Shown: positions 4,879 to 44,590 of the stretch, piece by piece
How positions within the stretch are numbered: the stretch's first letter is position 1
Layout: each line of letters begins with the position of its first letter
Source: Geosiphon pyriformis uo1
Taxonomy: Eukaryota > Fungi > Glomeromycota
Length of the DNA: 46,399 nt
Direction of reading: 5' to 3'
Assembly (NCBI GenBank): GCA_016748015.1
Contig: JAAOMT010000450.1
Coordinates: forward strand, 1 to 46,399
Program-made: the position numbers and the translations under genes
Notes under the pieces: generated by a model
Told to the model about the DNA's origin: nothing
Seen by the model: only the letters and a program-made list of their open reading frames with translations
The model's database searches: none

Positions 4879-6509
4879 ACTCTTAATTTCTTAGCAATAA
4901 AACAGAACTAGAACTATTAATCTTCACTATGGAATTATAATCTTGCGATATACTAGTTTGAAAATTGGTCGAAAAATAATATTCAGATAATCTTTGCATC
5001 ACAATCAGCTTTAAAGTTATTGAAAAAAGTCTCAATGGAGAACTTTTCTGAGACTTGCTACAACTTTGATTTATTGAATTTTTTTTAAACGACTTTGGTT
5101 TGCAAGAACTGTCATTGTTGTTATCAATTTTTAAAAGTATATTTTACATATTAAATTATTTGCCTAGCATAATATATTAATCTAAACGAGAAAAAAGAAT
5201 ATTTTCTTTAATTTTATTTATTTTGTTAAAACAATAATTTGGAACATAAGAAAATATAAATAATTTATTAAATTTCAGTTATCTTTTAAATTTATGACCA
5301 AGCTCTTTCACTCAATGACAAACAGGTTTACTTTTTCTAAACGGCTATCAACAATTATAGACATAATATGGGTATTTAATTTAATAGGTAATAAATAAAA
5401 ATGCTATAATAGCAAGCTAGAAAAATAATTTCAGCAACAGTATTACTAAATTCTGCCTATTTACCTTGCAAATTTTTAGATTATTATCATCATCATTATT
5501 ATTATTATTTCGATTAAAATTAAATTGGCATGTGGGATATGGAAAAATCATTATGAAATTTAAGCATAAAAAATTCTGATAATCTATATAGTTATTTTAG
5601 AAATCTCAAAATTTAAAGGGCATAAAGAAACCTGTAATGAAATAATGACATTAAAAAAATAGTCTAAAACTCTGTAATTTATAGAATTAAATAAATATTC
5701 TCAATACAAAACCGTTCTAATTGGAAGTTTTTTGGTAACTCCAAAGAATAAAGTATTGAAAATTTCTCATGTTTTTATCAAGCTTAAAAGAAAGCTTGAT
5801 AATATTTACATCAAATTGCCAAAGGTCTCGGAATCAGTCAAAATAAAAGCAAAAAGTTGAGAGAAAAAGCATCCTTAAATGCTCTTCTAAATATTTGAAA
5901 ACAACGCGTATTTTCTTTGAATATTTAAAAAATAGATGCCTAACATTAATTTTTGTATAGCATGAAAAATTTGTTTTATAGTCAAAAATAGACTGAAATA
6001 TAATCAAAAGGTAAGGAATAAGCAAAAAAATAAAAGTTTCCATTTGTGAAAAACAGAAATGAATTATTTCCAATAGTAGAACTACCGAGAAAAAAAATTT
6101 ACTTTTCGCGCAGCCAAATATATCCTTCGTGAAAAGTCTAATGTTAAGAAAACGATTTAATGATAAATCTGAAATAAATTCAAAAAAAATTCAAATTAAA
6201 GTTAAGCTTAAATCAATTTTTATATATTCCTAAAGAACCTATAATAGCTGCTCTCAGCTTTTGATGTACAAAAACCGAAAAAAAAATTTTTTTTTCTTAA
6301 TAAATTTATATTTTTATTAAACTAACTATTTTTGTTTTTGCTTTCAGAATTTTAAATTAAAATTACTTTTTTGTCATATATTAATTTATTGGAAAAATAA
6401 GATTATTAGCATTTGCAAAAAAATATCCATTCTCAATCGAAAATAAGTGTGCTATTTTGTGGTGATTACTTACCTGTGGTTTTTTCTTTCTGCATCCATT
6501 TATATCTGT

Positions 6510-7139
6510 CTCCTTTCCATTGAGAGAGATTTCGGGTGTGCTTATGGCACAAATTATCAAATAATTTAGACCCAAGTTCTCTTTCCTATTTAACATAGCT
6601 AATCATAATACGTATCTTTTTGCAGCTACTAGAAAGAAGAGGTCTTTTGATACGGGTTTTATATCCTCAATATATGAAAATTTAAAACAATTTTCTAATC
6701 AAGTCAAGTTTGTGTTGCTTTTTACATTACATGTTGTCTCAATTTCTCAATTGATATTTGAGTTTATTAAAAATGGCTTTAACTAAAAATTGTAATCATT
6801 AATAATTTTACTTTNNNNNNNNNNNNNNNNNNNNCTCCTTTCCATTGAGAGAGATTTCGGGTGTGCTTATGGCACAAATTATCAAATAATTTAGACCCAA
6901 GTTCTCTTTCCTATTTAACATAGCTAATCATAATACGTATCTTTTTGCAGCTACTAGAAAGAAGAGGTCTTTTGATACGGGTTTTATATCCTCAATATAT
7001 GAAAATTTAAAACAATTTTCTAATCAAGTCAAGTTTGTGTTGCTTTTTACATTACATGTTGTCTCAATTTCTCAATTGATATTTGAGTTTATTAAAAATG
7101 GCTTTAACTAAAAATTGTAATCATTAATAATTTTACTTT
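6510..7139. repeat. About 305-bp exact duplication across an N gap (6510-6814 = 6835-7139); probable scaffolding artefact
   Basis: Identical sequence directly abutting both sides of the 20-N gap. Confidence 0.85.
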
Positions 7140-8970: not shown

Positions 8971-9442
8971 TGAAAAACAAACGTGTAATTTTTAATCTTA
9001 AAATCAACAACTTAAAGGCAGTAACATATATAAAAAGGTGTTCTCTGCCTTTAAGCAAAATTTTATTCTATATGGAATTACTCTTATCTTTATCAGTGAC
9101 AAATTACCAGTGTCTACCAACTTACGAACCTAACAGTTATAACCAGTACGATTAACAACTCACCACTCATGACTCATGAATCCAAAGAACACTAAAAAAA
9201 TTTAAAAGATTCATTATCGTCCCCAGTTGTACCAATAACCACAGCAGGTATCGAAGGTTAAAAGCCTCTAGTTGATGAAACAATCCAGGTAAAGGTGTTA
9301 ACATATCTCTTCTAGCTCTAAGTATTGGGTGAGGGAGGGGGGCATCCTTTACTAGAAAAAACCCCAATTTTAACCAAAGAAACTCAACCAAGCACGGGGT
9401 TTCCAACTCCTTTATATCACCAAATGTGGTGTTCTCTAACCA

Positions 9443-9710
9443 CTGTGCATGCACCCATTCTGCCGAATGTCTGTTTTCACTTATAGTCTATAACATGAAT
9501 TGTTATACCTCTGTGCATGTACCTATTCTGCTGAATGTCTGCTTCTACTAATGGTTAATAACATGAATTGTTATATCTTTGTACATGTATCTATTCTGCC
9601 GAATGTCTGCTTCCACTTATGGTCAATGACATAAATTGTTATTTAACCTCTGTGCTTGCCGCATTCCAGCTAAATATCTGTTTCCACTTATGATTATTGA
9701 TGTGCATTAT
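9443..9710. repeat. Minisatellite, about 4 diverged copies of a 68-71 bp unit
   Basis: Units start at 9443, 9511, 9579 and 9650 (ctgtgcatgcacccattctgccgaatgtctg..cacttat..aacatgaattgttata). Confidence 0.9.
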
Positions 9711-9832
9711 GGGTTAAACTATTCCTATCTACGATCTAGTGAAACCACAGCCAACAGAACAGACTTGGCAAAATCAGCAGAAAAAGAATACCCTATTGAG
9801 CTTGACTCTAATTTGATACCAACAATTGACGG

Positions 9833-10200
9833 ATAACCACTGACCACCAATAATTTCCAAATTCAAAATTTGAATAACCACCACCCACCAATAATTCACA
9901 ACTCAACATTTGAATAACTATTACCCACCAAAAATGCCCGAATTCAATATTCGAATAACTATCACCCACCAATAATTTGCGATTCAAAATTTTAATATAA
10001 CCACTCAACAATATTTCGCAACTCAACATTCGAATAACCACTGGCCATCAAAAATGCGCGAATTCAACATTCAAATATAATCACTACCTACCAATAATTC
10101 AACTCAACATTTGAATAACCATCACCCACCAATAATTTGCATCTCAACATTCAAATTACCATGCTCACCAGTAATTCGCAATTCCACATTCAAATAACCA
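9833..10200. repeat. Minisatellite, about 9 diverged copies of a roughly 41-bp unit
   Basis: Recurrent ataaccaycacccaccaataattygcaactcaacattyga with no unique spacers. Confidence 0.85.
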
Positions 10201-10309
10201 ATGAATATGAAATAGAAATTCATGAACAATTGATCATTAAATAACTGAATTAAATTTTAGGATTAGGTGGTGAGGAATTAATAATTGTTAGTCTGTTATT
10301 TATGCCTTG

Positions 10310-18691: not shown

Positions 18692-21600
18692 CTACAAATC
18701 CTCTACCACTAATACCATACCACCTAAGCCTGTAAAAAGCAAACAACCAGGACATGTGCCAGAATAAAGACTTTTAATCTTATCCAAACTAAGTAATCTA
18801 ACAACCCCACTACTCATCATATTTACTATAGCCCTATTCAAGTGTACCAAACTACTGTCGGTAGCTATAAGCCCCATCTTTTCCACACACGCATGATGCT
18901 CAGATCTCTTATACCACACCACAGACCTGTAGATTGAGACAAAGTCCCTCACAAAATTAACTACCAACGAACTGGCATGTTCAGGGCCAGAAAAAGCACC
19001 CAACACTTCATAAAATCAACCAGCAAGAACAAAACCTTTTGCCAGCATGAAGTAAAAGCCATCATCACACGCACACAAAGTGAGATTCTGGACAACAGTC
19101 GAAAAAAAAGCAGCAATGCCAGTCAGCGATGACCACAATGCATAAAACTTGGACAAAATTTTGACATGGGTCATCAAATCAAAGGAACACATAAAAGAAT
19201 AATCAGATGTATCAACCAAATTACAAAATAAACACTTATCATTTGGGTAAGATTTGTAGTAAACATACTTGCGGGTAGCCACAGACAAATGGCCATACAA
19301 TAACTTTATGAAATATGTCCTCAATGCCGCCGAATAAAGGCTTGTAGAGCCAGAGACCATGTGTTTATTTGGGTGCCAAACTGCAAAAATTTTTTCCAAT
19401 TCACTACATTGACATTACAAATGTTGCGAATTACATAATTCAGTTCGTTTTCATAATGCACCCAGTACAACATCCAAAAGAAGTCTCTGACGAAGTGTCA
19501 AATGTTACATGACAGCGCCAAACTATCAGCCACAAGAAAATATTCCTTAACAAAAGTATGAAAAGAAGCACCACTATGGCAGGCATCAGAAGTGATAATA
19601 TCAGCATGGTCATTCTCCAGAACACCAGAATGGCCTTTGACTTTGTTTCAGAACACCACAAATAATTTACTGGAGATTATATTGGCGATGTGACATTACT
19701 CCATCCACAAATTGTTCCTGAAATCAGGCCGCATCAGAAGTGACTTACCAATACAAGCAGAAATAGCAGCCTGGCTATCAGAATAAATAATGACAGTGCA
19801 ACCTGAAGGGACACAAGTGAAAGTGAGAGCAATAGTCTTGAGCTTAGACATAGTAAAAACCATGATACCAGAGACACTAGCCCCAACACCATAACCAACG
19901 TCAGAAAAAAATGCAGCAGCACCAGTAACAACAGAGCCAGAACCAAAATGTTTTACCAATCCATTTGTGTACATATTGAAAGAAACCAAACCAGATTTAT
20001 GAAAAAAAACTGCAGCCTCACCGACAACATTAGCAATTGTATGGTCGACAGAGCTGGCACAAGAAGCAGGAAGCACAAAGCTGGTTTTAGGAGAATAGTT
20101 GTTCAAAAACTGAGCAGCTAGACTGAACCAAATTGGAACAGGGCTATGAGAATCAAGACATTTCCAATGCTTAAAACACTTCTAATCAAAGCAAACACCA
20201 CTTTTGTTCAAAAGCTGCTTGACAAAAGCAATTCTATAATGCTTAAGAGAACAAAACACACCAAAAAAACCACCAGCGCCAAGGATATTAGACATAGGCA
20301 TTCCCACAGTACGGCGAAAAGCACTTGGCAAAACAGAGAATGACAGTCCACAAAATGAAAAAATTTTTACCAATCTGGTCAAAAAATTGTTTTTAAGATC
20401 AACTTGTAACTTGATAGAACAACACAGCAGATGGACAAGTGACCAGCTTGCGACTTGTAAATTCAAACAATAATGAATAAAAAGCCAGCTCATAATACTA
20501 AGAGCATTTGCAAAATTAACAATGAATAATGACTTACCCTCAGCCTGAACTTGGCCAAATAGTTTAATGCCATACAAAGCAGGATGTAATAATGCAGCAG
20601 TAGGAAAGTTATGGGAAAGGTGTGCCTTAATTTTTAAGCTTTTTCTAACAACAGCATCCCACTTAGAGCACACATTGTTAGAAATGAAACTGAATTGAGT
20701 CCTGTAGCTGATAATAGGCTGCAGGACAGACAAAACTAAATAACAAAACTACTTATCAGAGATAGCCTTGTGCAGAATTGTGTTTGAAAAAAACCAAACA
20801 TCTGAATGTGCCTTAAGTAGACTAGGTTTTGAAAAGCCCTCTGTAGACAAAAATATGTCCAGATAATGATGAGATTTACCCTTTTTAGCTATAGCTATTG
20901 GTAAGCCACAAATAGACAAAAAAACATTCTTCACTCTCTGATTAATAGGAATGACAACAGTTTTGTCTGTGTTAATTGAGATATTATTAAGAGTAAAAAA
21001 CTTGCTAGCAATGTTCAAGATAGACTGAGTGGTGGCATGACTGCTGCTTATCCAAATTGTGTCATTCATGAAAGCACTAGCAGCAAAGAATGAGATCATC
21101 CCAGCCTGTGATTTCACTTGACCAGACCTAGCAACAAAATGAGAACCAATTCTGTAACCAAAAAACTTCTCATATCTCTTGACCTTACACAGAAGAGGGT
21201 TGTAAAAGATCTTCCATAGAAGCGGGGAAAACACTTCATCCTGATCCAGTCTATTCAACAACCTGTAACTATCAGAAAGGCCAAAGTCCGTCATAATCCT
21301 GTTAGTCCTGCCCAAATAAATATTTCCGAAAAAACCAATAAATCTTTTACACATCTTGATATGTCTTAGTCTAGCTTTCAAGTGAAACCACCTTACTGAG
21401 TCATAAGCCTTATACATGTCTTGCAAAACCAGTGAAAGCTTCCTCTCTTTTTCCAGAGTGTTTTCTATAATAAACCTAACAACAAACACAGAGGATTAAG
21501 TAGAAGTATCTTTTAAAACCAAGAAATTGTCACCTCTAAGAACATTGAAATTATTACAAGCCGAGGAAATTTGGTCAGACAAAATTTTTGACAAAATTTT

Positions 21601-23376
21601 CTGTGCAGTCTCAATTAAAGCAATTAGACATGTATTTGTAAAAAAACCCTCTCAGTCATAGGGCTTGGGGATCATAGAAACTCAGGTGCACTTCCAAAAG
21701 GTTGGAATATTACCAGAAACCAAGCAAGTATTCAACAAGGTCAAAAGACAACTCAAAACAATCTTATCGCAATGCTTTCAAAGTTCATTTGAAATGCCCA
21801 AGAGACCTAAAGCCTTGCTATCTGGCAGAGTCTTTACTACCTTAACCAATTCATTCAAAGTAATCGCATTCATAATACCAAAGAAGACATTATCTGCAAC
21901 ATAATCTAATAAAGCATACTGATAGGACTATGCACTAGGCACAGAATCAGAGATCCTGCATGTTCTTGTCCAATTAATTATAATATTATCCACTTTGGCC
22001 TTCATATCAAATGGATCCAAGATCAACTCCTTACCTACAACCAAGTGATCAAAGACCACTTTGTTGAAAGGATGGTCAAAAATACTACTAATTATTCTTT
22101 CTTTTCCAGAAACAAAATTGTCAATGTGCTTTTCAATAGCCTTATTAATAGAAAAACTCTTAGCCAATTCAGATTCATGATACTTAGCCTTATGATACAA
22201 CTTCTTGGATAATGACAAATGTTTTAAAACCAAAGCAGAATCAGCACCCTCATCAAGCAGACTGAAAATCTTAGAAGATTCTGCATCATCCAAAACCAAC
22301 CAAACCTTAACAAGATAAAAAAAATGAGCAGAGTCACCTTTGCCGAGAGCCTTAACCAACTTGATAACCAACAATTCAAGCCTGTAAAACCTTGAAGAAT
22401 GTTTGTTTCTGGAGCAATCAAAAACACTATACCAACATTTGGAGAAAACAAAGTCAGCTAAATCTATTGTCGCTGTACATAAGAGCATCTACATAAAGTC
22501 CAAATCTTCAAGAATCTTTGCTGCAGAAATACCATCCATAGAAGACAACAAAACAGTAGAAGCACGATCACTAAAACATTTCTACTTGGCAGCATCTGAG
22601 TCTTTAAACCTAAAAGTCCAATAGTCTTTATTAGCAAGCTTGCACAAAGAATTTAAACACTTGTTCAAAAGGCCACCCAAGTTAACAGAAACAGAAATGG
22701 ACACATGATTGGTATCAAAGTGATCAAAAACATCATCAACACATCCACTAAACATGGCATTTAAGAGATGTTCACTCACAAAAACAAAGTCAATGGTTTT
22801 CTTAACACCCCTTGAATTGTACTACGTAGGCAACTTAGAAACATGGCTGTTCAAAAGAGCATTGCATAAACCTAATCCCATACACATCTTAAAATTTGTA
22901 CTGCATCCAGTCCTATCTTCATTAAAGTCACCATTAAGTAGGACGTGAGAGCTAGAATTCACTGCTAATGCTATTATTGAGTTGATAGCAGAGACCTGTT
23001 CAAACCTCAAACCATGCAAAACACCAGTATAAAGACCCAAAATTGTGACAAAAATCTTGTTGGCAAAGAGGAAACGAACAGAGATAAGACGTCTAGGGAT
23101 GTCCAAAACACTATACACATGATGAGCAATAAAATCATTTAAGATAATTGCGACTTCAGAATCAAAGTGCCCAAAATCCACCCCAAAACAAAAAACTTTT
23201 AATCCAGGAAACCTATTTTTGAGCCAAGATCCATTGGCACTCCTAAGCTTTGTTTTAGTAATAACAGAGACTAAATTACATGAATCCCTATGTCACCTAA
23301 TAACATCTTTCTGTTTAGCTAAATTGTTAATGCCCTTAACATTGCATGTAGCAAATTTCCACACATGACTGTTCAT
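18692..23376 (-). pseudogene. LINE ORF2: AP endonuclease - reverse transcriptase - RNase H - C-terminal Zn finger (disrupted)
   Basis: MNSHVWKFATCNVKGIN and VLLNGDFNE (APE); LVLQDMYKAYDSV, LDQDEVFSPLLW and AFMNDT (RT, degenerate xxDD); MYTNGL, IYSDSQAAI and KVKGHSGVLENDHAD (RNase H); CLFCNLVDTSDYSFMC (Zn finger). Many stops and frameshifts. Confidence 0.93.
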
Positions 23377-24135
23377 AAAGAGGAATAAGAATTGTAAGAA
23401 TTTGGACTGACACAAAGAAGATCCAACTTTGTCAACACAGCACCAATAGAAGCTTCTAAAGCCACCAGCTTAGTTTTCAGACAGCCAACCTTAGACATCA
23501 AGACTCTAGAACTACTGGAACCTAAAGCCAAAACACTACCAAAAGGTAAAGATAATATCACAAAAACTTCCAAAATCATATCTAAGTCTAAGTCTACAAC
23601 AGCAGCCATTGGGGAAGCGGCATTACTGAGAGAGGGAGAGGAAACCAAAGGCACCAAATCCATACTACTGAGTTTGTACACTATGCCAGAGACCCAATCC
23701 GCCAGTAGTTCTAAGGCCTATTCCAAAGAGGCCAAGTGATTGTCCAAAGAAGATCTATCAGATGAAGCAAAAAAGAAATCACCACACAAATCTGAAACAC
23801 TGGAAGAGAAGGTACCAAAACCAGAACCAGCACCAAAGAAATAACTATTAGAAGAGTGTGCAAGAGAGACAACTTGGGCCCAAAATTTGCCGCCAAAAGC
23901 AGCAGAGCAAGAGACAGGAACATTTTTCTTAGCATACAGCCTGGCCAACTAAAGACAGTTCATATTGGAGACAAAACTTCTAAAGGACTTAGGAGGTGTA
24001 GAAGCAGGAGCAACAAAAACAATGGACACATCACATTCCAGAGCCAAGTGGTCAAATCTTCCACACTTATCACACTGAACCAGATCCAATCTAGCCCACA
24101 AAAGCTTAGTGCCACCAAAGATTGGCTCAGTGCGA
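23373..24135 (-). pseudogene. LINE ORF1, 3' part, with CCHC zinc knuckle
   Basis: TEPIFGGTKLLWARLDLVQCDKCGRFDHLALEC (CX2CX4HX4C); coiled-coil-like KVGCLKTKLVALEASI; stop TGA at 23375-23373. Confidence 0.85.
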
Positions 24136-24902
24136 TGTTACGGGATGGTTTTCTTGTTATATTTAATTGCTGATATCCCGCTTTAATTGCAATCAGTCTT
24201 TCGTGAGTTCCTCAGTTCTATTTGTGTGATAATGTCACTGTTACACTGAAGGCTTTCTTTTTACTGTTGTGATGTAAGTTATTCTTTAATTCTTGATTAT
24301 TGTGTGTGTTTATGTACTCCTTCTCAGAGGCTGAACTGAAATCTACCCACTGTCTGGGGTCTTCTCTGAGGCTATCTTTGCAATTGCCTGATGTGTTTCT
24401 CTAATCTAGAAACACAGAATGTTAATGGTCTTTAGCGCTTTTCTAATTCTCACAATAAAGCTTTTATCAATTAGTAACAACGTGAATAATCTTGATCAAG
24501 GATTATTCTTNNNNNNNNNNNNNNNNNNNNNNNNNNNNNNNNNNNNNNNNNNNNNNNNAGTATGATTTAAAGTGGAGTTTGTGGGATAAAATTGGATCTA
24601 TTGCTTGATAAGTTATGATTTTTATTACTTGATTGATTCTTTCCCAATATTAAAACTACTGTATATATACATGTTTGTAGTTCTACGAGAAACTACTTTC
24701 TTTTTGATATTTCAACCTGGTGCTTGCTGCTATCACCAGTTGGTGTTGGCTGCTATTGTGAACTGGTGCTTGCCACTATCGCGAGATGGTGTTTGCTACT
24801 ATGTTAATCATTACCTTTCTAAGATTATTACTGTGCTATATTATGATTGAATAGTTTGTATTATTTTTATGATTCTTTTTGCTAAATTCTTAAACCGTAA
24901 CA
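24136..24902 (-). repeat. 3' LTR (contains an N gap)
   Basis: TGTTACGG...CCGTAACA inverted termini; near-identical to 29334-30214. Confidence 0.95.
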
Positions 24903-24905
24903 TTA

Positions 24906-24917
24906 TCCCCTCCTTTC
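24906..24917 (-). promoter_or_regulatory. Polypurine tract (PPT)
   Basis: GAAAGGAGGGGA, 3 nt upstream of the 3' LTR on the minus strand. Confidence 0.9.
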
Positions 24918-24994
24918 AAGATTGAGCTCCGTCGAAATCGAAGTTAATTTCTTCATTAAATTCTAAGTTACTATAGTGGTTCAATACTGTGTTA

Positions 24995-27900
24995 TTAATT
25001 TGTTAAAGTGAGTTCACAGTAGAGGGCGATTTCTGGGAAATTTAGAATTTCTTGTGGTGTTGACGCGTTTTCTAGCTCCGTTCCGAGGTATCCAATGATG
25101 GTATCTTCCGGAATGTAAACGGGTTCTTCTGTGGTGTTTGCGATAGGAATTTTTATCCATTGAGCTTTATTAGCTGGAATAAAAAGGTTAGTAAGTCCTA
25201 TGAAAAACTGTTGGCAAGTTTCTGGGTAGGGCTCAAATATTAGGTCTTTTTCTTTAATTGTCCTTTTTATTCTTATTTCTGATTTTCTATATGGTAGGAG
25301 CATGATAGACCACTCATTTTTAATTACTTCACCTTTTTCTTCTATTGTTTCAGCAAAATTCGCTTCAATTCCTTTTCCTGTCGATCCAAAACCAAAAGTT
25401 CCTCTCGTTGTTTGTGACAATTCCTCACGATTTTCTACTGGCACAAATTTCCCAATTTTTACCAATGGTAGGAAAATTGCTTGTGCAATCTTTTTCTTAG
25501 ATTCAATGGTATAAGGCTTTTCTGAATTGTTCTGTAGCAAAACCATCAAATTTCCAGTGTATCCAGAGTCAATTACTCCTCCTTGAACACTTATTCCTTT
25601 TTTTGCAAGGCTTGATCGTGACGCCATTTGAACCATTATTCCTGGCAGAATTTCAACCGCTATTTTTAGGTCGATTTTGGTGATACTCCTGGATGGTAAC
25701 ATTGTGGATTGGTCTTCCGGATAACGTAGATTGAATCTGGCATCAGTTGGATGGGCTCTTTTGGGTATTATTCCTAAGTGCCCATTGTCGAAGTATTGGA
25801 TGTCGGTCACCTGTTCTAAGTCGGTATAGGCTACAAATTTTTCTGACTTGGGACCGTCAGGTGAGTCTTGTTGATTTATTGATTGATTTTGAGACTGCTG
25901 ATTCTCAATTTCCATTTTTCTTTCTAAGTCCCTTTCATCTTGACACTCTTCACAGCACTGACTTTGGCACGGGATGAGACAGTTTTTGCAGAGGTAAGTG
26001 TTGATTTGGGCGAGATATTGTTCTTACTCTTGTCGAGTGGGGCATAGTTGTTGGTAGTAGTCCTGGAATTCGTCCACTGGGTCGAACATGTTGTAGCTGG
26101 CGACTTCGTCGGCTACTTCGGCTGACTCTTTCCAACGTCATATTTCTTCGGTGGTTCCTCCTCTTACTTTGGCTTGTGCGGTGTTGTACAACTCGTTCTC
26201 GTCGTGTGGGTAGTGCTGTAGTCTTTTTAACGCTCTGTTGAACGCTGCTTTGAATGGTGTTCCTCCTCTTACCCAGTCACAGATGAGGATCATGTATTGG
26301 CAAGTTGCGTCACACGTTCTTCCTCTGCCTGGTAAGTTGTTCCAATCGCACCCTCTTGGTAACGGTTCTCCACAAGTGAGGCACGGTTTCTCGTCCCATT
26401 TTCCGTGTCTTTCTGGGTAACCGTATTTTTCTTTGTTACAACGGTTACAATAGTAGTGGGTGGGGTTTCTTGGGTCTTCGTCTGGTGCGCTGCATGCAGT
26501 CATAGACAAGAGTTTCTTCTTGCAAACTGAGCATTCTAGCTTTGGTTTGCGTCGCTGGTGGTTTCTTCGTGAACTTACCTGGTTCCATTCGGATCTTTCT
26601 TCGCTGGTCCACGTTGGTACGGCTGGTAGTCCTGTTCTTTGGTCATCAGCCCAAGAGAGCTGATAGGTTTCGATGGCTGGTAGTGCTGGATTTTCCTCAA
26701 ATTCGAAGGTAGGTCTTTGGTTGGCACTGGGTTTTTGGAAGTGGTCACAGGTGGCTGGAATTTTGGCCTGGTGGCCATTATAATTGATCAGAAGCTCTTG
26801 GGTGGTCCAGTCTATGGTGGCATTGGCTTTTGTTAGCCAGTCATTCCCTACTAACACTTGATATTGTGTAGCATTCATTACTAATACTTTTGTAGGTATT
26901 ACTATGCCGTTAATTTCGAAAGAGAATGAGTCGATTTCGCCATAAGGCAGCTTTGTACTTCCATCGGCTGTTATGATTTGGGACGTCGCGGCACGATCAA
27001 CTTTGAAACCCAGTTGGTTTACTAGTTGAAGCATTACGATGCTTCCAGCGGATCCACTGTCTAAGATAAGTTTGATTGGGGTATTGTTTATAGTGGCTTC
27101 TGTATACATATCAGTGATTGGGCGTTTTTCGTCCAATGCTGCTCCACTGAACATAGCCTCGTTTTCCTCTAATTTAAAAGAAAAAATAGCTGCGAGGCTG
27201 CTATCTTCAGTGGCAACTGCTGGTGGTATTGTCTGGCTCAATTTGGAGAAATTCTTGGTTCTGTTTATGTTTCTACCGTCATTGTTTCTGATGATCAGGT
27301 TTTCCGGTATATTAAGGTAAGTTTGTTGATAATTTTGGTAGTTTGGATTGGTTTGCTGATTGGTTCCGGCGTGGTTTGGATTCCTCTGGACCAACGCGTT
27401 CTGGTTCCACATGGGCTGATTTCGGGCCTCGGGACGCCAATTCGGGTTGGCTATCATGGGCTGTTGCTGGTAAGCTCCTTAATTTTGATATGTGGTGAGA
27501 TATTGGCGTGGTATTGGCGTATACTGGTTTCTGGGCATTTGGGGTGGCGCGTAGTAATTATTTTCGCGTGCTTTCTGCATCATTCGCATTCGACATTGAC
27601 TAATCAAATGTCCTACGCATTTGCAAAAATGGCAGGCGCGTGTTTCTGTTCTGAATTCCTGGCACGACGGGTGATTATTTCGACTGTTGCTGACTTCCTG
27701 GCTGCGTCTTTGGGGTGGTTGGTATGTTTTTTTTCTCGGATCCGGGATGAGGTAACTTTTTATTTTCTTAGAGAGTTCCTCCCCTAATCACGTTACTCTT
27801 TTCTCTAATGTTTCTGTCTTATTTTCCTCCATTATCATATTAACCATTTGACTATGGTTAGCTTTTTTCTCAGCCAATTCAAGGGCTCTGGCGAGCGTAA

Positions 27901-29251
27901 CAGCTTCTGGTAAGGAATTAGGGTGGGCAGGGCATACTCTTCCTAAAATGCTGCTTTTTAATCCTCTAATAAACTGATTTAAAACCTGAGGATCAGTGTA
28001 GTATCCTTGTTCAATCGCTTCAATCTGACGGCGAATTCGATTGAATCGAGCAAGGTATTGGGTGACAGTTTCACCGGTATTTTGCTTGATAGTATTGAAT
28101 TCATTCTGTAGTTGGATTACAGCGTTTGGGTTGCTAAAATACTCCAGGAGTGCATTTTTAAATTCGGCGAAGCTCATGGGTTTTGTTTCCAGGCTTTGAT
28201 ACCACGAGTCGGCTGTGCCTTTCAGGAAGAAAGGTAATGTTTGAATTGCTCTTTGGTTGTTCCAGTTATTTGCCTGGATGGCTTTTTGTGCTTCTCTGAG
28301 CCATGTGTGCACGTCCGTTTCTTCTTCCTCTCCTGAGAAATCTGTTAGTCTTGCAATATATGGTGTGGTTATTTCATTGCCGTTTTCTGCTGGTGAGTTT
28401 ATTGGTCTAAGAGGAGGTGGGATGATATTTCCTTGAGCATTCCTAAAGGTGGCTTCCCTTATATCCGGTTCTTCCTCTTGATCATGAGTTTTTTGGTTTT
28501 TAGACTGGCTGCTTGTTCCAGTGACTGGTCTTGTGATTGTTTTTTCGCTGGTCTCTTTTTCGGATTCTGATTCAGACTTCTCTTCACGGTTTTCAAACCC
28601 CGTTCTAAATTTTGGCTGAAAAAAAGGGTTTTGGAATAGTGATGAATATCCTTCTGTAATTGGTATGTCTCTCCAGTTACGTTGTTTAATTTTATCAATA
28701 TAACTAGGAGTTCTTGGCGTTTGTGGAGTTGATGTTGATGATGATGCAGCTCCTAATGGAATTTGTATCTTATTTTCTGGTGAAAAATGATATAATTTAT
28801 CTTCTGGTGAATAAATACGTTGTTTCTTTATTGATTAAGTGACAGTTTTTTTTGGCGTTTAAGCTGGTGTTTCTAGTTTTTGCTGGTTACTTTCCTGATT
28901 AGTTTCTAAATTTTCTTTGGTTTTGTTGGCACGTTCCCTAGTGTTTCCTGTGGATATTGGAAAATTTTCGTTGGTGTATTGCTCAATTTCTCGATGGATT
29001 TTGACAATAGTTGCGGCTATTACTGCTACTTCTTTTGTAGTGTATTGTGATAATTCTCTATACAATCCAAGTTTTGCGTTGTGTGGTTCTTCTTCCTTTC
29101 CTATATGATAATTTATTCTGGCGTTAATATAATAAGTGAGGGCAGATTCTGCTGGACAACACCCTTCTGGTAATCAAAGATCACTTTGATTTTGTGTGTA
29201 AATAGCACGGCAGAATTCAAGAACAGTAAGATTAGGGGTATTTGTCGCCAC
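24995..29251 (-). pseudogene. Single-frame polyprotein, about 1419 codons: Gag capsid - CCHC - aspartic protease - Cys-rich domain - dUTPase, interrupted by about 7 nonsense codons
   Basis: Track ORFs 28859-29065, 27788-28312, 26138-27457 and 24995-25915 are all in one frame. Motifs: FLKGTADSWY, QNTGETVTQY, QFIRGL (Retrotrans_gag); CHFCKCVGHLISQC; LILDSGS..VLVGNDWL (A2 protease); dUTPase motifs. The start is taken at GTG 29251. Confidence 0.9.
25375..25775 (-). CDS. dut: Trimeric dUTPase domain within the retroelement polyprotein
   Basis: Motif I DARFNL (cf. AGFDL, degenerate), II SRSSLA, III GVIDSGYTG, IV KIAQAI, V RGTFGFGSTG. Confidence 0.93.
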
Positions 29252-29313
29252 TTTTGTTTTTTCCTTTTTAGCAATGAATTATTGCTAATTATTATTTCCT
29301 TTTTGATTTTCTT

Positions 29314-29331
29314 TCCTTGTAGGGTTCACCA
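29314..29331 (-). promoter_or_regulatory. Primer binding site (PBS)
   Basis: TGGTGAACCCTACAAG, 2 nt downstream of the 5' LTR; begins TGG, complementary to tRNA CCA. tRNA identity not established (tRNA-Trp-like 3' end GGGUUCACCA is a guess). Confidence 0.8.
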
Positions 29332-29333
29332 AA

Positions 29334-30214
29334 TGTTATGGGATGGTTTTCTTGTTATATTTAATTGCTGATATCCCGCTTTAATTGCAATCAGTCTTTC
29401 GTGAGTTCCTCAGTTCTATTTGTGTGATAATGTCACTGTTACACTGAAGGCTTTCTTTTTACTGTTGCGATGTAAGTTATTCTTTAATTCTTGATTGTTG
29501 TGTGTGTTTATGTACTCCTTCTTAGAGGCTGAACTGAAATCTACCCACTGTTTGGGGTCCTCTCTGAGGCTATCCTTGCAATTGCCTGATGTGTTTCTCT
29601 AATCTAGAAACACAGAATGTTAATGGTCTTTAGCGCTTTTCTAATTCTCACAATAAAGCTTTTATCAATTAGTAACAATGTGAATAATCTTGATCAAGGA
29701 TTATTCTTCCAAGGGATTTAGTTGATGAATGATAGTTTCATTCAATAAATAATACAAGTAAGTTTCTTAATACTTTGGGTTGTGATAGTTCAGTTTTAAA
29801 TATTCTTTTTCATTTCTTTTTGATTTTAAAGGTTTCTTGGGATATTTAATTTGAAAGTATGATTTGATAAGTTATGATTTTTATTACTTGATTGATTCTT
29901 TCCCAATATTAAAACTACTGTATATNNNNNNNNNNNNNNNNNNNNTGATTCTTTCCCAATATTAAAACTACTGTATATATACATGTTTGTAGTTCTACGA
30001 GAAAATACTTTCTTTTTGATATTTCAACCTGGTGCTTGCTGCTATCACCAGTTGGTGTTGGCTGCTATTGTGAACTGGTGCTTGCCACTATCGTGAGATG
30101 GTGTTTGCTACTATGTTAATCATTACCTTTCTAAGATTATTACTGTGCTATATTATGATTGAATAGTTTGTATTATTTTTATGATTCTTTTTGCTAAATT
30201 CTTAAACTGTAACA
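29334..30214 (-). repeat. 5' LTR (contains an N gap)
   Basis: TGTTATGG...CTGTAACA; about 11 substitutions and one 38-bp indel versus the other LTR over the alignable part. Confidence 0.95.
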
Positions 30215-31245
30215 GCGAAAAGCAACATTAAGCAATTCCTCCAATTCAAAACCAATGACGGCACAGCAAAAATGGTTGCTAGTGTCTAATGAATGATTGA
30301 TTATACAAGTTTTCCCACCAGCCTTCTCTAAAAGAACACCAAAATCATGTGCAGTTGTTCCCACTGGTAAAGTAAACAAAAACATTCTGAATTGATCTCT
30401 AGAAGCCCAAGTATCATAATCTTCTACAGCTTTGGCCACACGCACAGAATTTTTCTAAATTAAGAATGACCACTTAGACACCAACTGATCAGCTTGACTC
30501 AATTTGGCAAATTCCACCACAGTCTTTTGCCACATTCCAATAAGTTGAATTTTAATTGATTTAATTTGACCAAATTCAGAAACTGCAGTGATGATCTTAT
30601 TCTCTTTAGCCAAAGACACAGCCTTAATCATGCTTTCTTCAGAGGTAAAAGTAGATTGGATAATCTCTTCAAATTTTGAGGAGGTAGTGACCCCCCAAAA
30701 CCATTGATTTTTGAAAAAAGTTTTCTGATAAGTTGAGTCTTTATAGTTGCCAATACACCTTCCACAACTGAAAGATTAATATTTAGCACAAAAGACTTCT
30801 TTACAGCCACTTCTACAGAGGTCTTCACAATAATTGAATTAACCTATTTACTTTCTGAAGATACTTTCTTGAGAGAAGGTGGAAGAGGTTTCACATTCTC
30901 ATCCATTTCATAGTTGGAAAAGCCAAAAAGAGAGCCAAAAACTGCACCAGTAATTACTCTTTTTGTTTTAAGAGTATTAGCTGCTGAATCTAACAGAGAC
31001 CCATTGTACACATCTTCCATGATAGCAGTGTTTTTTCCACTGCTGGACTCACTTTCAAAATTAGAGTAAGTACTATGAGAATCAGCTTTGGCCAAAGATA
31101 TGTCCTTTTCATTACCCAAATGCTTTATGTTGCCAATAACTACCTTCTTTTTCTGGGAAAAAAAACCACCAGCAGGACCATAGAAGGTATCTTTGGGTGC
31201 TTTCTTCTTAGACATGCTGCTACCAGAAGCAGCTCCCAAATCCAT
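30215..31245 (-). pseudogene. LINE ORF1, 5' part
   Basis: MDLGAASGSSMSKKKAPK start; RRM-like segments (EFGQIKSIKIQL..VVEF; FTLPVGTTAHDFG..GGKTC); ..LLNVAFR joins in frame to TEPIFGG once the LTR element is removed. Confidence 0.85.
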
Positions 31246-32319
31246 GATGAAAGGGTTATTAGTTAAAGAAATGTTGATATAATACTAGCAGAAAAACCAA
31301 AAAAAAAAAAAAAAAACTTCTTTTTCAGAAAAGTGCTTGTTGAGGATTTTTGGGGATAAGAGAGAAAGAAGTTTTTTACTTTCTTTTACTAATATGTGAT
31401 TTTAGAAATGTTAAAGTTTAAAGCAATAAATATTATTTTAATTGAAATTCTGAAAAGAGAAAAAATCCAATAATTCTATAATGTTGAAAAAGAAATAATT
31501 TTGAATACTATAATTGCCTTAGTGCTTGACAATAAATTTGATTACATAATAATCAGTTTAAAAAAGTTATTGGGATATTGTATCTAAAATTGAAATTTAT
31601 TTCTAAACTATTTTATTGTTATTTAGAAAAACTTAAACCTTATTTTTGAAAAAATTAGTATCATTTAATAGAACAAAAAAGCCAAAAAAAATTTGTTTTA
31701 TAAAAGTTTTGCAGAGTCTTTATGTGATTATATGATTTCAAATGTTGATTTATTTTATTATACACTAAGGTTAAATTAAAATGAGGTACTTTCTTAAATT
31801 CTTAATTTCGAAAACAGTATTTTTAAAAAATATACTTTTTTTATTGATGTTTTTTGAAAATTTCTAATAGAATTTTTATACAAGAAATACTTTTCATATA
31901 GGCAGCATGCTATAAATTAATAAAAATTTATCTAATGAGTAACATTTGAGTTTTAAAATTATTTAATATTAAGTTAAGCAAAAAAGATTTGCTAAATAGA
32001 AAGCTTAAAAAAAAAGAGCTAATTAATAAGTATAGTTTGAAATATTATTATTTAATAGAAAAACTTGTATTTTATATTATTAATTTAAGTTGTTTTATCA
32101 AAAAAATTACTTTTATGTATAATATTTTTTTAAATAATAGATTGGAATCTAGATTTTTGTTGATTTTAAGTTTTGATTGAAAAGTTATCACAATGTTAAA
32201 AAAGGTCTATAGAAAAAAAAACATTTAAAATTTTTTTTAAAAATTTTCATTTAGGTTTCATGCACACATAATCGATAATACTTTTGACACTAATATTAGA
32301 ATATAAGTATTTATCAAGT

Positions 32320-35599: not shown

Positions 35600-37250
35600 T
35601 CAATTCTAGCTGAGTTCAAATTCTAATGTTGATGATTTCATTACTTAAATCCTTGAGAGGCGAAATAATCATGATTTCGATGTTGTTAGGTTAATTTACT
35701 TTCATTACTAAGAGTCTATCATCACCAAAAATATATAAAATGATATACTCAATTGATTTAAAAGAAGTTGATAGATTTTTATAAAATATCCATGGTGAAT
35801 AATTATACTTGAAATGTTATATTAATGAAAATTTTTATCACGTTTACACCTAAAGATAAAGTTTCTTTAAATAAATATAAAAATTATGGAAATAACTCCT
35901 GTTTATCCTCTTAACTCTAGTTATCTTTTGGTAAAATATTATTAAAAACAAGTCTCTAAATGATGTTATTGAATAGTTTTAATGATTTTTAAGTTAGTAT
36001 ACGGGTTTCAATAATCATATACATGTATATTCAATTTGCATTTAGAACCTACTTTAATAAGTTAAAAGGAAACATGAAAATCAGTTTTTTTGCACCTTTT
36101 GCTACAACTGATGGAGGCTTTGGGTCTTACCAACTGGGTTACTACATTAGAAAATGACAAAGTTATAGTATATATTATGAATTTACCATATTTTATTAAA
36201 AAAAGTAAGATTGAATGGGAACACGTGCTTGCCTTTCGTGAATTTCATCAATTTTTTTATTCAAACACTGGGTATCATAACTTGTTGATTAAAACTACTC
36301 TAAATTTAATCGGAGTTAAAACAAATAAATTTTAAGTTAATTTTAANNNNNNNNNNNNNNNNNNNNNNNNNNNNNNNNNNNNNNNNNNNNNNNNNNNNNN
36401 NNNNNNNNNNNNNNNNNNNNNNNNNNNNNNNNNNNNNNNNNNNNNNNNNNNNNNNNNNNNNNNNNNNNNNNNNNNNNNNNNNNNNNNNNNNNNNNNNNNN
36501 NNNNNNNNNNNNNNNNNNNNNNNNNNNNNNNNNNNNNNNNNNNNNNNNNNNNNNNNNNNNNNNNNNNNNAGTTAAAAGGAAACATGAAAATCAGTTTTTT
36601 TGCACCTTTTGCTACAACTGATGGAGGCTTTGGGTCTTACCAACTGGGTTACTACATTAGAAAATGACAAAGTTATAGTATATATTATGAATTTACCATA
36701 TTTTATTAAAAAAAGTAAGATTGAATGGGAACACGTGCTTGCCTTTCGTGAATTTCATCAATTTTTTTATTCAAACACTGGGTATCATAACTTGTTGATT
36801 AAAACTACTCTAAATTTAATCGGAGTTAAAACAAATAAATTTTAAGTTAATTTTAAGTTAATTTTAATTGCTATTATTTTACTAATATTAACAGTTTTAA
36901 GTGGCTCTATTGTAGTAGTTAGTTTAAATTTTAAGAATAAATAAATAATTGATGACTTTTTTTAATTTAGAAAATTAGTTTTGCAGTTGTTCTTATCATA
37001 TCAATTCTAGTCAATGTAATAGTCAACACTAAATTTACTCTAAAAAATGGAAAAGATATAGAATTTTTACATCCATATACCAAAATAATTAAATTTTAAT
37101 TTTGAAAGTACAAACATAATTAATTATTATATTCAGTATTATTTTTCTAGTTATACCAATTCTTTAATAGTGAACTGACAGGGTTCATTATTATATTAAC
37201 AGAGATTATCACCAATTCGAATTTCATATAATTTAATGAAATCATTAATC
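35600..37250 (+). pseudogene. Decayed third paralogue of the same membrane-protein family
   Basis: 36970-37080 aligns with exon 33311-33421 and 37136-37225 with exon 33503 onward; FATTDGGFG at about 36099 resembles the family's N-terminal region. The 5' boundary is approximate. Confidence 0.65.
36060..36856. repeat. 287-bp exact duplication across an N gap (36060-36346 = 36570-36856); probable assembly artefact
   Basis: Identical copies abut the gap and give the duplicated 81-aa ORFs in the track. Confidence 0.85.
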
Positions 37251-43151: not shown

Positions 43152-44590
43152 ATGTCACTTTAACAACAATTTCACATTTATCCAATGATTTTGGGAATTT
43201 ACTAGATAGTTAGAAATTTTATGATGTCAGAATTGTTGTTGGAGAAGCACCCAATCTCAGAACTTTTCATGTTTATTTACAAATTTTAGCAGCAAGATTA
43301 TCATATTTTGCCCTAGTACTCTCTAATAATTGGTTTAAAAGGGAAAACAATGCCATTATCTTTGCTAAACCTAATATTTTACCTGAAATTTTTGAAATAA
43401 TTCTTAGGTAAGGGTTTTTATTTGCTTCAAAGTATTTTGGCCAATATTAATTCATATCTTTTATTTTCATGTACAGATATATTTATAATGGTGAGATCTC
43501 TCTTGATAAACATGGAGTCTCTACCATTTTAGAATTGCTTGCTACTGTTGATGAACTTATTCTAAAGAATTTTATTGATCTCCTTGAAGACTATTTGATT
43601 CAACACCATGCAAAAGAGCTAGAAAAAAATTTCATCACTTTGCAGAATATCTCATTTATGCATGATTCTTTCAAAAAGTTACAAGAATTCTGCACCAAAA
43701 TAGCTGCTAACAATTCAGCTATAGTCTTCAATTCCCAAGATTTCACCTCCCTCAGTGAAAATGCTCTTTCCTCAATTTTAAAGAATCTGAAATCTGGGAA
43801 AAAATTGTGGAATGAGGAGTTGCTAAATTGGATAACAATATTCAGATCAAAAAAGTTCTTTACTGGACAGATGAAAACTTTAGCACTTTTAAGAGATCCA
43901 TTGAAAGACTTTTACCTTTAATCCCGCTTCTTTAACATATCTTCAATTGAATTCTATCACAAAGTAAAACCATTTGCGAGAATCTTACCTGGAACTTTAT
44001 ATGAAAGATTTTTTACATCATTATTTTATACCGGGTAGTGATCAAAAGCCTGTATACAGTCAGTCAATAAAATTAAATATCAATTCAATGCTGTTTCAAT
44101 TGCATAATATAAAAGAGCTAGATCATTGGATTCAAGGCAAAGACGAAAACACACCTTTTGGAAATCAACTTGGAAATGAAATGAAATTATTACTTCGAGG
44201 CAGTCAAGACAGATTCACTATAGCCAACTTTCATCGACTATGTGATAATAATGGAACAACAGTAAGCATAATTAAAGTAGAAGGAACTGGTCAGCTGATT
44301 GGCGGCTATAATTCACAATTGTGGCATTCTGGGAATGCTTGGTTGGAGGGAAAAGGAAGTTTTATTTTTTCCCTTGGAAATGGCAAAGTTGGAAATACTA
44401 AACTTAGCAAATTTGTTGGCAGACATGAACCTTATGGTGGGCCAAATGACGGACCCCAATTTGGAGGTGGCAATCTTTGTGTGTATAGCAATGTAAAAAG
44501 ACAAGAGATTATGAGCATGCTCTACTGCTTGGATCAGAAGAGCAACAGGTGAATTTTTTTTTAGAGAAGTATGAAGTTTTTCAATTATAA
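43152..44590 (+). pseudogene. BTB/POZ - BACK - TLDc domain protein pseudogene
   Basis: LSNDFGNLLDS*KFYDVRIVVGEAPN..ILAARLSYF..KPNILPEIFEIILR|YIYNG (BTB, intron about 43408-43476); SFKKLQEFC..FTSLSE (BACK); KLLLRGSQDRF..FHRLCDNNGTT..LIGGYN..SFIFSL..GPQFG..YEVFQL* (TLDc). Stops in exon 1 and several frameshifts. Confidence 0.92.

What the first reader, a model, noticed from the sequence alone, without database searches (positions are those of the whole stretch)
24136..30214. Non-autonomous LTR element encoding Gag-protease-Cys-rich domain-dUTPase with no RT, RNase H or integrase
Seen: complete cis elements (LTR pair, PBS, PPT, TSD) and one indel-free frame of about 1419 codons ending about 90 bp before the PPT, with no YxDD, RNase H or DDE motif. 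Known: dUTPases occur in betaretroviruses, non-primate lentiviruses and ERV-L to limit uracil in cDNA, and are uncommon in fungal Ty3/Gypsy elements. Inference: either a one-off internal deletion, or a family that supplies its own capsid, protease and anti-uracil enzyme and borrows RT/IN in trans. The latter would be an unusual helper-dependent system.
Basis: partly seen in the sequence, partly recalled or inferred. Interest (0 to 1): 0.8.

Follow-up and report, generated by a model that had tools for sequence, protein, structure and literature searches.

The report
Pol-deleted copy of dUTPase retrotransposon
This is a dead copy of a fungal jumping gene that lacks its copying and integrating enzymes; it is most likely a shortened offshoot of an abundant full-length family in the same fungus, which probably copied it to a few sites, a familiar kind of genomic hitch-hiker.

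Summary
The anatomy is real: LTR pair, 4-bp TSD, PBS-like site, PPT, and one frame with Gag, protease, a Cys-rich region and dUTPase, but no RT, RNase H or integrase. Close relatives are Geosiphon pyriformis gene models (79 of 83 hits). Of 29 covering the 3' end, 17 continue past 25003-25005 towards RT, so this copy is an internal deletion (about 3 kb, estimated) of a full-length family, joined at a 3-bp microhomology. dUTPase and the Cys-rich region come from that parent. One other gene model and contigs from two RNA-like runs show the same junction on different mutation backgrounds, so the short form probably spread in trans, as a minority. Nothing shows it is a selected helper system. Precedents: dUTPase between PR and RT in Postia, Gag-protease-only Sabrina/WHAM, IAP 1-delta-1. 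Side findings: a second, predicted dUTPase-fold domain follows the enzyme, and a multi-intron antisense RNA covers the family. Interest is low to moderate.

The parts
24132..24135 (.). target-site duplication GCGA, left copy
   Evidence: host LINE frame continuous with one copy
24136..24902 (-). 3' LTR (48-N gap at 24511-24558)
24906..24917 (-). polypurine tract
24916..25002 (-). 28 codons plus stop in another frame; inferred leftover C-terminal tail of the parent's Pol
   Evidence: full-length contigs continue this side into other sequence at 25004
25003..25005 (-). deletion junction: 3-bp microhomology inside an imperfect 8-9 bp repeat; not a GT..AG splice site on either strand
   Evidence: loose ends on both sides, family proteins; junction read by eye from these
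25061..25357 (-). second domain with a predicted dUTPase fold and no dUTPase sequence motifs
   Evidence: AF2 model; top 22 structural hits are all dUTPase/dCTP-deaminase fold, best Z 10.8, rmsd 2.1, 86 aligned; Foldseek agrees
25376..25771 (-). trimeric-type dUTPase domain; motifs 2-5 present, motif 1 altered in this copy
   Evidence: Pfam PF00692 E 1e-23; 72 PDB sequences hit
25950..26560 (-). Cys-rich region between protease and dUTPase; nine Cys conserved; likely zinc-binding; no family or fold assigned
   Evidence: fold searches inconclusive
26789..27115 (-). retropepsin-type aspartic protease (DSG motif)
   Evidence: Pfam
27575..27634 (-). CCHC zinc knuckle
   Evidence: weak Pfam hit, E 0.038; visible in translation
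27881..28357 (-). Gag capsid (Ty3_capsid / Retrotrans_gag)
   Evidence: Pfam E 2e-15 and 6e-14
24995..29251 (-). single gag-pol frame, 1419 codons, 7 internal stops
29315..29331 (-). PBS-like site, 2 nt from the LTR; tRNA not identified
29334..30214 (-). 5' LTR (20-N gap at 29926-29945; lacks about 38 bp present in the other LTR)
30215..30218 (.). target-site duplication GCGA, right copy
25187..29831 (+). introns of an antisense, multi-exon RNA made from copies of this family (not shown to come from this locus)
   Evidence: table 5
18700..31300 (-). degenerate LINE-like element (ORF1 knuckle, RT; endonuclease- and RNase H-like parts read by eye) into whose ORF1 the LTR element inserted; bounds approximate
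   Evidence: RVT_1 E 1e-6 at 20752-21495

Best explanation
This is a decayed Ty3/Gypsy copy that lacks RT, RNase H and integrase; it most likely arose by one microhomology-guided deletion from an abundant full-length family (Gag-PR-Cys-rich-dUTPase-dUTPase-like-RT, with RNase H and integrase inferred) in a Geosiphon-type fungus, and was probably copied to a few sites by that family's enzymes. Shown: the anatomy, the family's continuation past the junction into RT-upstream sequence, and decay by C-to-T change mostly at CpG. Inferred: a template switch during reverse transcription, or a DNA repair event, joined the end of the dUTPase-like domain to the last 28 codons of pol. This left a new stop and kept PBS, PPT and LTRs. 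RNA of the short form would be packaged with Pol from full-length copies, reverse transcribed and integrated (4-bp TSD inside a LINE), then mutated by methyl-C deamination. The dUTPase would have served the parent by lowering dUTP during cDNA synthesis (established role of viral dUTPases; untested here). It is kept here only because the breakpoint fell downstream of it.
For: Parent exists: 17 of 29 family gene models continue past the junction. P0088's continuation aligns to the RT-upstream part of P0011 (E 9e-51), which has PR, dUTPase and RVT_1 in one ORF. In DNA run X1, 5 contigs leave the window at 25004 and 3 at 24996-24997, one of them encoding the family's WQQPLECY-type continuation; 6 of the 8 longest of 48 pieces start at 24996-24997 and 2 end at 25004-25005. 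Shared junction: P0002 ends ELTSTN-stop, as the junction predicts, and is a different copy, with 27 window-only, 20 P0002-only and 3 shared derived residues in 645 columns, one of the three being the junction residue. Contigs in X2 and X3 (two studies) run 24978-25184 and 24976-25184 with 4 and 3 differences. X2 differs from the window overall by 80 A>G/T>C against 6 C>T/G>A, so its template is a less mutated copy. Decay after insertion fits: CpG loss 5 of 20 in LTRs against about 55 of 151 (estimate) in the interior, p 0.46; 26 of 37 listed C-to-T sites are CpG.
Against: No flanks or TSDs of a second junction-bearing copy were seen, so retrotransposition of the short form is not shown. P0002 is known only as protein; the call rests on three residues and a stop. 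The RNA-like contigs have 27 and 29 letters on the short side, below the tool's 31-letter rule for bridging (though well above the 8 letters that the imperfect repeat could give). None of the 8 listed X1 pieces bridges the junction, not even for the window's own copy, and 40 pieces were not shown. RNase H and integrase of the parent were not seen whole; integrase rests on a 9-residue loose end in X3. Both LTRs contain scaffold gaps.
Confidence: 0.65

Rival explanations
1. The deletion happened in chromosomal DNA after insertion. Any second copy of the junction comes from recurrent deletion at the same short repeat, gene conversion or segmental duplication, with no transposition of the short form.
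For: The junction sits in an imperfect 8-9 bp repeat that could break more than once. The junction is rare: 1 clear case and 2 ambiguous ones among 20 informative gene models, and no bridging contig among those listed for X1. A second, different departure point at 24953 in X3 suggests the family suffers other deletions.
Against: An exact repeat of the same breakpoint in up to three backgrounds is unlikely by chance. Window and P0002 share almost no derived residues, which argues against a late duplication or conversion.
Confidence: 0.25
2. The short form is a maintained semi-autonomous family. An intact master makes Gag, protease and dUTPase and trades them for RT and integrase, like wheat Sabrina_SA and WHAM.
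For: The junction creates a stop right after a complete domain. Among the three least-diverged informative gene models, one is deletion type (P0002), one full (P0010) and one ambiguous (P0085). The RNA-like contigs with the junction are near the family majority and deeper in X2 than the full-length 3' contig (51 against 23).
Against: No divergence from the parent family (about 3-4% derived residues). This copy has 7 stops and an altered dUTPase motif 1. The RNA seen is spliced on the antisense strand, so it is not a gag mRNA. The junction is a minority in gene models and DNA contigs.
Confidence: 0.06
3. The missing pol is an assembly artefact: a short-read assembler joined two parts of a multi-copy element.
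For: Both LTRs have N gaps, the family is very high-copy, and no listed X1 contig bridges the junction.
Against: The interior 24559-29925 is gap-free. The shared sequence at the junction is 3-9 bp, too short for a word-graph misjoin (inference). Independent contigs from two RNA-like runs and a public gene model show the same join.
Confidence: 0.04

Closest known systems
dUTPase-bearing fungal Ty3/Gypsy elements, especially PosPlaTy3-5 of Postia placenta; also Phanerochaete and Tuber Tmt1 (PMC2864245, passages); rotifer Juno/Vesta/TelKA (PMC5408684, passages)
   Same: dUTPase in the polyprotein between protease and RT, as in this element's parent.
   Different: Here the host is a Glomeromycotina fungus; a Cys-rich region precedes the enzyme and a second predicted dUTPase fold follows it. 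The 28-codon tail gives no room for a chromodomain. This copy has lost RT-RH-IN.
Mouse IAP 1-delta-1 subtype (PMC6466679, passages)
   Same: One fixed internal deletion of an active LTR family, mobilised in trans by full-length relatives.
   Different: 1-delta-1 makes an in-frame gag-pol fusion that helps in cis and causes most new insertions. Here the join is out of frame, removes all of RT-RH-IN, and appears to be a minority.
Wheat RLG_Sabrina_SA and RLG_WHAM, 'semi-autonomous' Gag-protease-only gypsy families (PMC9744471, passages)
   Same: Gag and protease kept, RT and integrase absent, cis signals intact.
   Different: Those are large, old families with thousands of copies that co-evolve with RLG_Wilma. 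This one is barely diverged from its parent and is seen in at most a few copies.
Spliced TE-antisense lncRNAs of Blumeria hordei (PMC10648671, passages)
   Same: Spliced RNA antisense to Ty3 elements, without apparent coding potential.
   Different: Here it is seen only in assembled contigs of runs whose library type is not on record; no expression or function data.

Membership tests
Ty3/Gypsy (Metaviridae-type) LTR retrotransposon | TG..CA LTR pair with short TSD | tested here: met
Ty3/Gypsy (Metaviridae-type) LTR retrotransposon | PBS complementary to a host tRNA, and PPT | tested here: inconclusive
   PPT and a TGG-starting site are present; no tRNA set was available to match
Ty3/Gypsy (Metaviridae-type) LTR retrotransposon | Ty3-type Gag and aspartic protease | tested here: met
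   Pfam Ty3_capsid, Retrotrans_gag, gag-asp_proteas
Ty3/Gypsy (Metaviridae-type) LTR retrotransposon | pol order PR-RT-RH-IN in the family | tested here: inconclusive
   PR then RT shown through P0088/P0011; PR-dUTPase-RT-RH in P0083 and others; the parent's own RH and IN not seen whole
Autonomous LTR retrotransposon (this copy) | intact RT, RNase H, integrase and an open frame | tested here: not met
   no Pfam hit or motif; 7 stops
Trans-mobilised deletion derivative (IAP 1-delta-1 type) | full-length parent with the same LTR, gag and protease in the same genome | tested here: met
Trans-mobilised deletion derivative (IAP 1-delta-1 type) | same junction in independent insertions with different TSDs | tested here: inconclusive
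   same junction in P0002 and X2/X3 contigs; their flanks could not be read
Semi-autonomous Gag-protease family (Sabrina_SA/WHAM type) | whole family lacks RT/IN and is distinct from its helper | tested here: not met
   17 of 20 informative gene models continue towards RT; window about 4% from the family majority
Semi-autonomous Gag-protease family (Sabrina_SA/WHAM type) | retained ORF under purifying selection | not testable with these tools
   no DNA of other junction copies available
Trimeric dUTPase (first domain) | five conserved motifs | tested here: inconclusive
   motifs 2-5 present; motif 1 altered in this copy, AGFDL in P0003; motif definitions recalled; activity untested

The most novel reading that the evidence does not exclude
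The junction marks a young helper-dependent subfamily with an intact master that makes Gag-protease-zinc domain-dUTPase-pseudo-dUTPase and makes up a real share of the most recent burst. The pseudo-dUTPase is the same domain that sits unrecognised between protease and RT in many Ty3/Gypsy Pols, so a dUTPase fold would be an old, widespread part of these polyproteins and not a rare capture.
Probability: 0.15. Interest if true: 0.6.

Novelty: new member of a known kind. Interest (0 to 1): 0.3.

Why it matters
As read here it is ordinary TE biology in an LTR-rich fungus (41.2% LTR in G. pyriformis, PMC11952901): a deleted passenger of a large family. Its use is as a pointer to a very high-copy dUTPase-carrying Ty3 family in a Glomeromycotina fungus, with an unassigned Cys-rich domain and a tandem dUTPase plus dUTPase-like pair. 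If the dUTPase-like domain proves general in Ty3 Pols, the history of dUTPase capture by retroelements would need revising. The spliced antisense RNA could be a source of silencing RNA.

Tried and rejected
No genome was held, so copies and TSDs could not be counted. The search for related loci in metagenomes gave 1 distant locus, L001 (34% identity). An exact 23-base pattern found 0 matches in prokaryote genomes and 0 in viral contigs. No run was listed as RNA on record. The absence of PF00078 in all 79 Geosiphon hits was rejected as evidence for an RT-less family: the models stop at the start of RT, which looks like repeat masking (inference). Depth steps across the junction in X1 could not separate bridging from non-bridging contigs; no contig starts in 24975-24983, where a bridging path would be expected, but such contigs drop rare variants. 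The junction as a splice site was rejected: no GT..AG on either strand. Cys-rich region: no Pfam family, Atlas scores only 0.77, best structural Z 5.9 on a helical part only, one weak viral hit with rmsd 18.5; no fold assigned, which does not show the fold is new. A dUTPase phylogeny was not built: only 8 usable domains were stored and no host, viral or endobacterial set was fetched. The link between the second domain and the PR-RT spacer of other Pols is mixed. HH probability was 95% on 33 of 87 motif-selected segments, 7% once the selecting motif was removed and 70% on 30 held-out segments; true dUTPase against the held-out set gave 1%. Literature searches for Geosiphon plus dUTPase (0 papers), AMF plus dUTPase plus retrotransposon, dUTPase-like plus Ty3 and Geosiphon plus retrotransposon plus Pfam listed nothing that describes this family by title or abstract start. 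The library lacks most subscription papers, and no supplements were read (those of PMC2864245 and PMC11952901 may bear on this). Scan look-ups by place and by sequence were empty.
Full report
Observation. The element lies on the minus strand of an AT-rich eukaryotic window. Its LTRs (24136-24902, 29334-30214) start TGT and end ACA and differ at 11 of 644 comparable bases; 10 of the 11 are transitions. Each LTR holds an N gap, so insertion age from LTR identity is less safe than usual. The TSD is GCGA. Removing the element and one TSD copy restores a continuous frame in the ORF1 of a degenerate LINE, which shows a clean insertion. The frame 29251-24995 is 1419 codons without indels but has 7 internal stops. 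Family proteins have sense codons at these places (read by eye). Pfam finds Gag, protease and dUTPase and nothing of RT, RNase H or integrase; a six-frame motif scan agrees.

Host and family. A search with residues 570-1278 gave 83 proteins, 79 of them Geosiphon pyriformis gene models, up to 93% identical locally. The host is therefore G. pyriformis or a very close relative (inference). G. pyriformis is reported as 41.2% LTR sequence (PMC11952901, passages). In DNA run X1, whose contigs match the flanks exactly (3269-bp contig, 0 differences), summed contig depth is about 85 on single-copy flank, median about 91,000 on the interior and about 250,000 on the LTRs. The tool warns that this is no copy number, and overlapping contigs inflate it; I read it only as hundreds of copies or more.

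The missing pol is a deletion. A search with the last 151 residues gave 29 proteins, all Geosiphon. Of these, 17 continue past the window's end into a WQQPLECY-type sequence, 1 ends as the window does (P0002), 2 are ambiguous (P0085, P0090 end ELTSIN-stop, which either type could give with one mutation) and 9 end too early. The continuation aligns with the RT-upstream region of P0011, an unnamed metagenomic protein with protease, the Cys-rich region, dUTPase and RVT_1 in one ORF. Ten of the 120 listed hits carry both dUTPase and RT Pfam domains. X1 contigs leave the window on both sides of 25003-25005. From those loose ends the two parent sides share 3 bp exactly, within an imperfect 8-9 bp repeat (read by eye). 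What stays before the PPT is 28 codons plus a stop in another frame, the inferred tail of Pol. From distant Pols (137 residues to the RT motif, median 898 from there to the end, 33 proteins) the loss is about 1,000 codons, and the parent about 9 kb. A loose end in X3 at 24953 encodes KMSSDIIQY on the minus strand, which resembles the integrase zinc-finger helix (pattern). That is only a hint of the parent's integrase.

Was the short form copied? P0002 ends ELTSTN-stop. It is not this locus: against the family majority the window has 27 private changes, P0002 20, and they share 3, one being the junction residue. Contigs in X2 and X3, from two studies, run from 24978 and 24976 to 25184 across the junction with 4 and 3 differences. 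They have 27 and 29 letters on the short side, under the tool's 31-letter rule. Their template is less mutated than the window (X2: 80 A>G/T>C, 6 C>T/G>A) and has too few differences to be P0002's locus (compared by eye). So up to three backgrounds share one breakpoint. Against this, no flank of a second copy was seen, P0002's DNA was not seen, and none of the 8 listed of 48 X1 pieces bridges the junction. The simplest reading is a minor deleted lineage that moved at least once with the parent's enzymes (0.65). Recurrent deletion, conversion or duplication remain open (0.25).

Decay. Of the 40 best-supported differences from other copies, 37 are C-to-T in the window, 26 of them at CpG. CpG methylation of TEs is reported in Rhizophagus (bioRxiv 10.1101/2021.03.30.436303, passages). 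CpG loss in the LTRs (5 of 20) and the interior (about 55 of 151, extrapolated) do not differ significantly (p 0.46). The stops may thus all postdate insertion, but the numbers are small.

The extra domains. The dUTPase matches 72 solved sequences, best E 8e-17. Motif 1 is altered in this copy. The region after it folds with mean pLDDT 75.6 in the best model, while the other four models score 50-54. Its top 22 structural hits are all dUTPase or dCTP-deaminase folds (best Z 10.8, rmsd 2.1, 86 aligned; next unrelated 5.4), and Foldseek agrees. It lacks dUTPase motifs, so it is a predicted pseudo-dUTPase. It also resembles the PR-RT spacer of Pols without dUTPase, but that link weakens under controls (95% selected, 7% with the motif removed, 70% held-out). 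The Cys-rich region has 187 relatives at E 0.001 or better and nine conserved Cys. No family or fold could be assigned; zinc binding is an inference.

Antisense RNA. X2 and X3 contigs skip 14 listed segments (15 of 45 rows shown). Eleven read GT..AG on the plus strand, with donors such as GTAAGT, GTGAGT and GTATGT; none does on the minus strand; chance is about 1% per skip. Twelve occur in both runs and none in X1. The exon chain has no stop-free stretch over 111 codons. The library type of these runs is not on record, so RNA is inferred from the splice pattern. Spliced TE-antisense lncRNAs are known in Blumeria (PMC10648671, passages).

Comparison. Gag-protease-only families are known in wheat (PMC9744471, passages). 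Fixed deletion derivatives moved in trans are known as IAP 1-delta-1 (PMC6466679, passages). Non-autonomous partners and incomplete pol genes are noted as common in fungi (PMC3248453, passages). Four searches listed no description of this Geosiphon family; most subscription papers and all supplements were unseen.

Verdict. A real, dead, pol-deleted member of a dUTPase-bearing Ty3/Gypsy family, probably mobilised in trans as a minor lineage. It works like IAP 1-delta-1 or Sabrina in needing a helper, but fails the test for a separate semi-autonomous family. New member of a known kind; interest 0.3.

Noticed in passing
window 25187-29831, + strand: Contigs from two RNA-like runs show at least 11 GT..AG introns antisense to gag-pol, with consensus-like donors; no long ORF in the exon chain.
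   Followed up: partly
window 25061-25357, - strand: Predicted second dUTPase-fold domain without catalytic motifs; may be the same domain as the PR-RT spacer of many Ty3 Pols that lack a dUTPase (mixed profile evidence).
   Followed up: partly
window 25950-26560, - strand: Cys-rich domain with nine conserved Cys, no Pfam family and no clear fold match.
   Followed up: partly
window 24953: An X3 contig leaves the window here into sequence resembling the integrase zinc-finger region: a second deletion form or a splice from a full-length copy.
   Followed up: no
window 18700-24131 and 30219-31300, - strand: Degenerate LINE-like element with many stops, hosting the insertion; CpG strongly depleted (o/e 0.21 and 0.08 against 0.74 in the LTR element), so it is likely much older. 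Its right part is also multi-copy in X1.
   Followed up: partly
window 29865 region against 24559-24610: The 5' LTR lacks about 38 bp present in the 3' LTR and in X1/X2 contigs.
   Followed up: partly
window 4053-4904: Array of 108-bp units, 89-94% alike, with an open frame on the minus strand giving weak Cys-pattern Pfam hits.
   Followed up: no
window 9439-9713 and 9840-10201: Two diverged tandem arrays of 68-bp and about 40-bp units.
   Followed up: no
window 43968-44552, + strand: TLDc-domain reading frame (Pfam E 4e-10).
   Followed up: no
window 6510-7134 and 36060-36856: Perfect 300-bp and 287-bp duplications on either side of N gaps: likely scaffolding artefacts.
   Followed up: no
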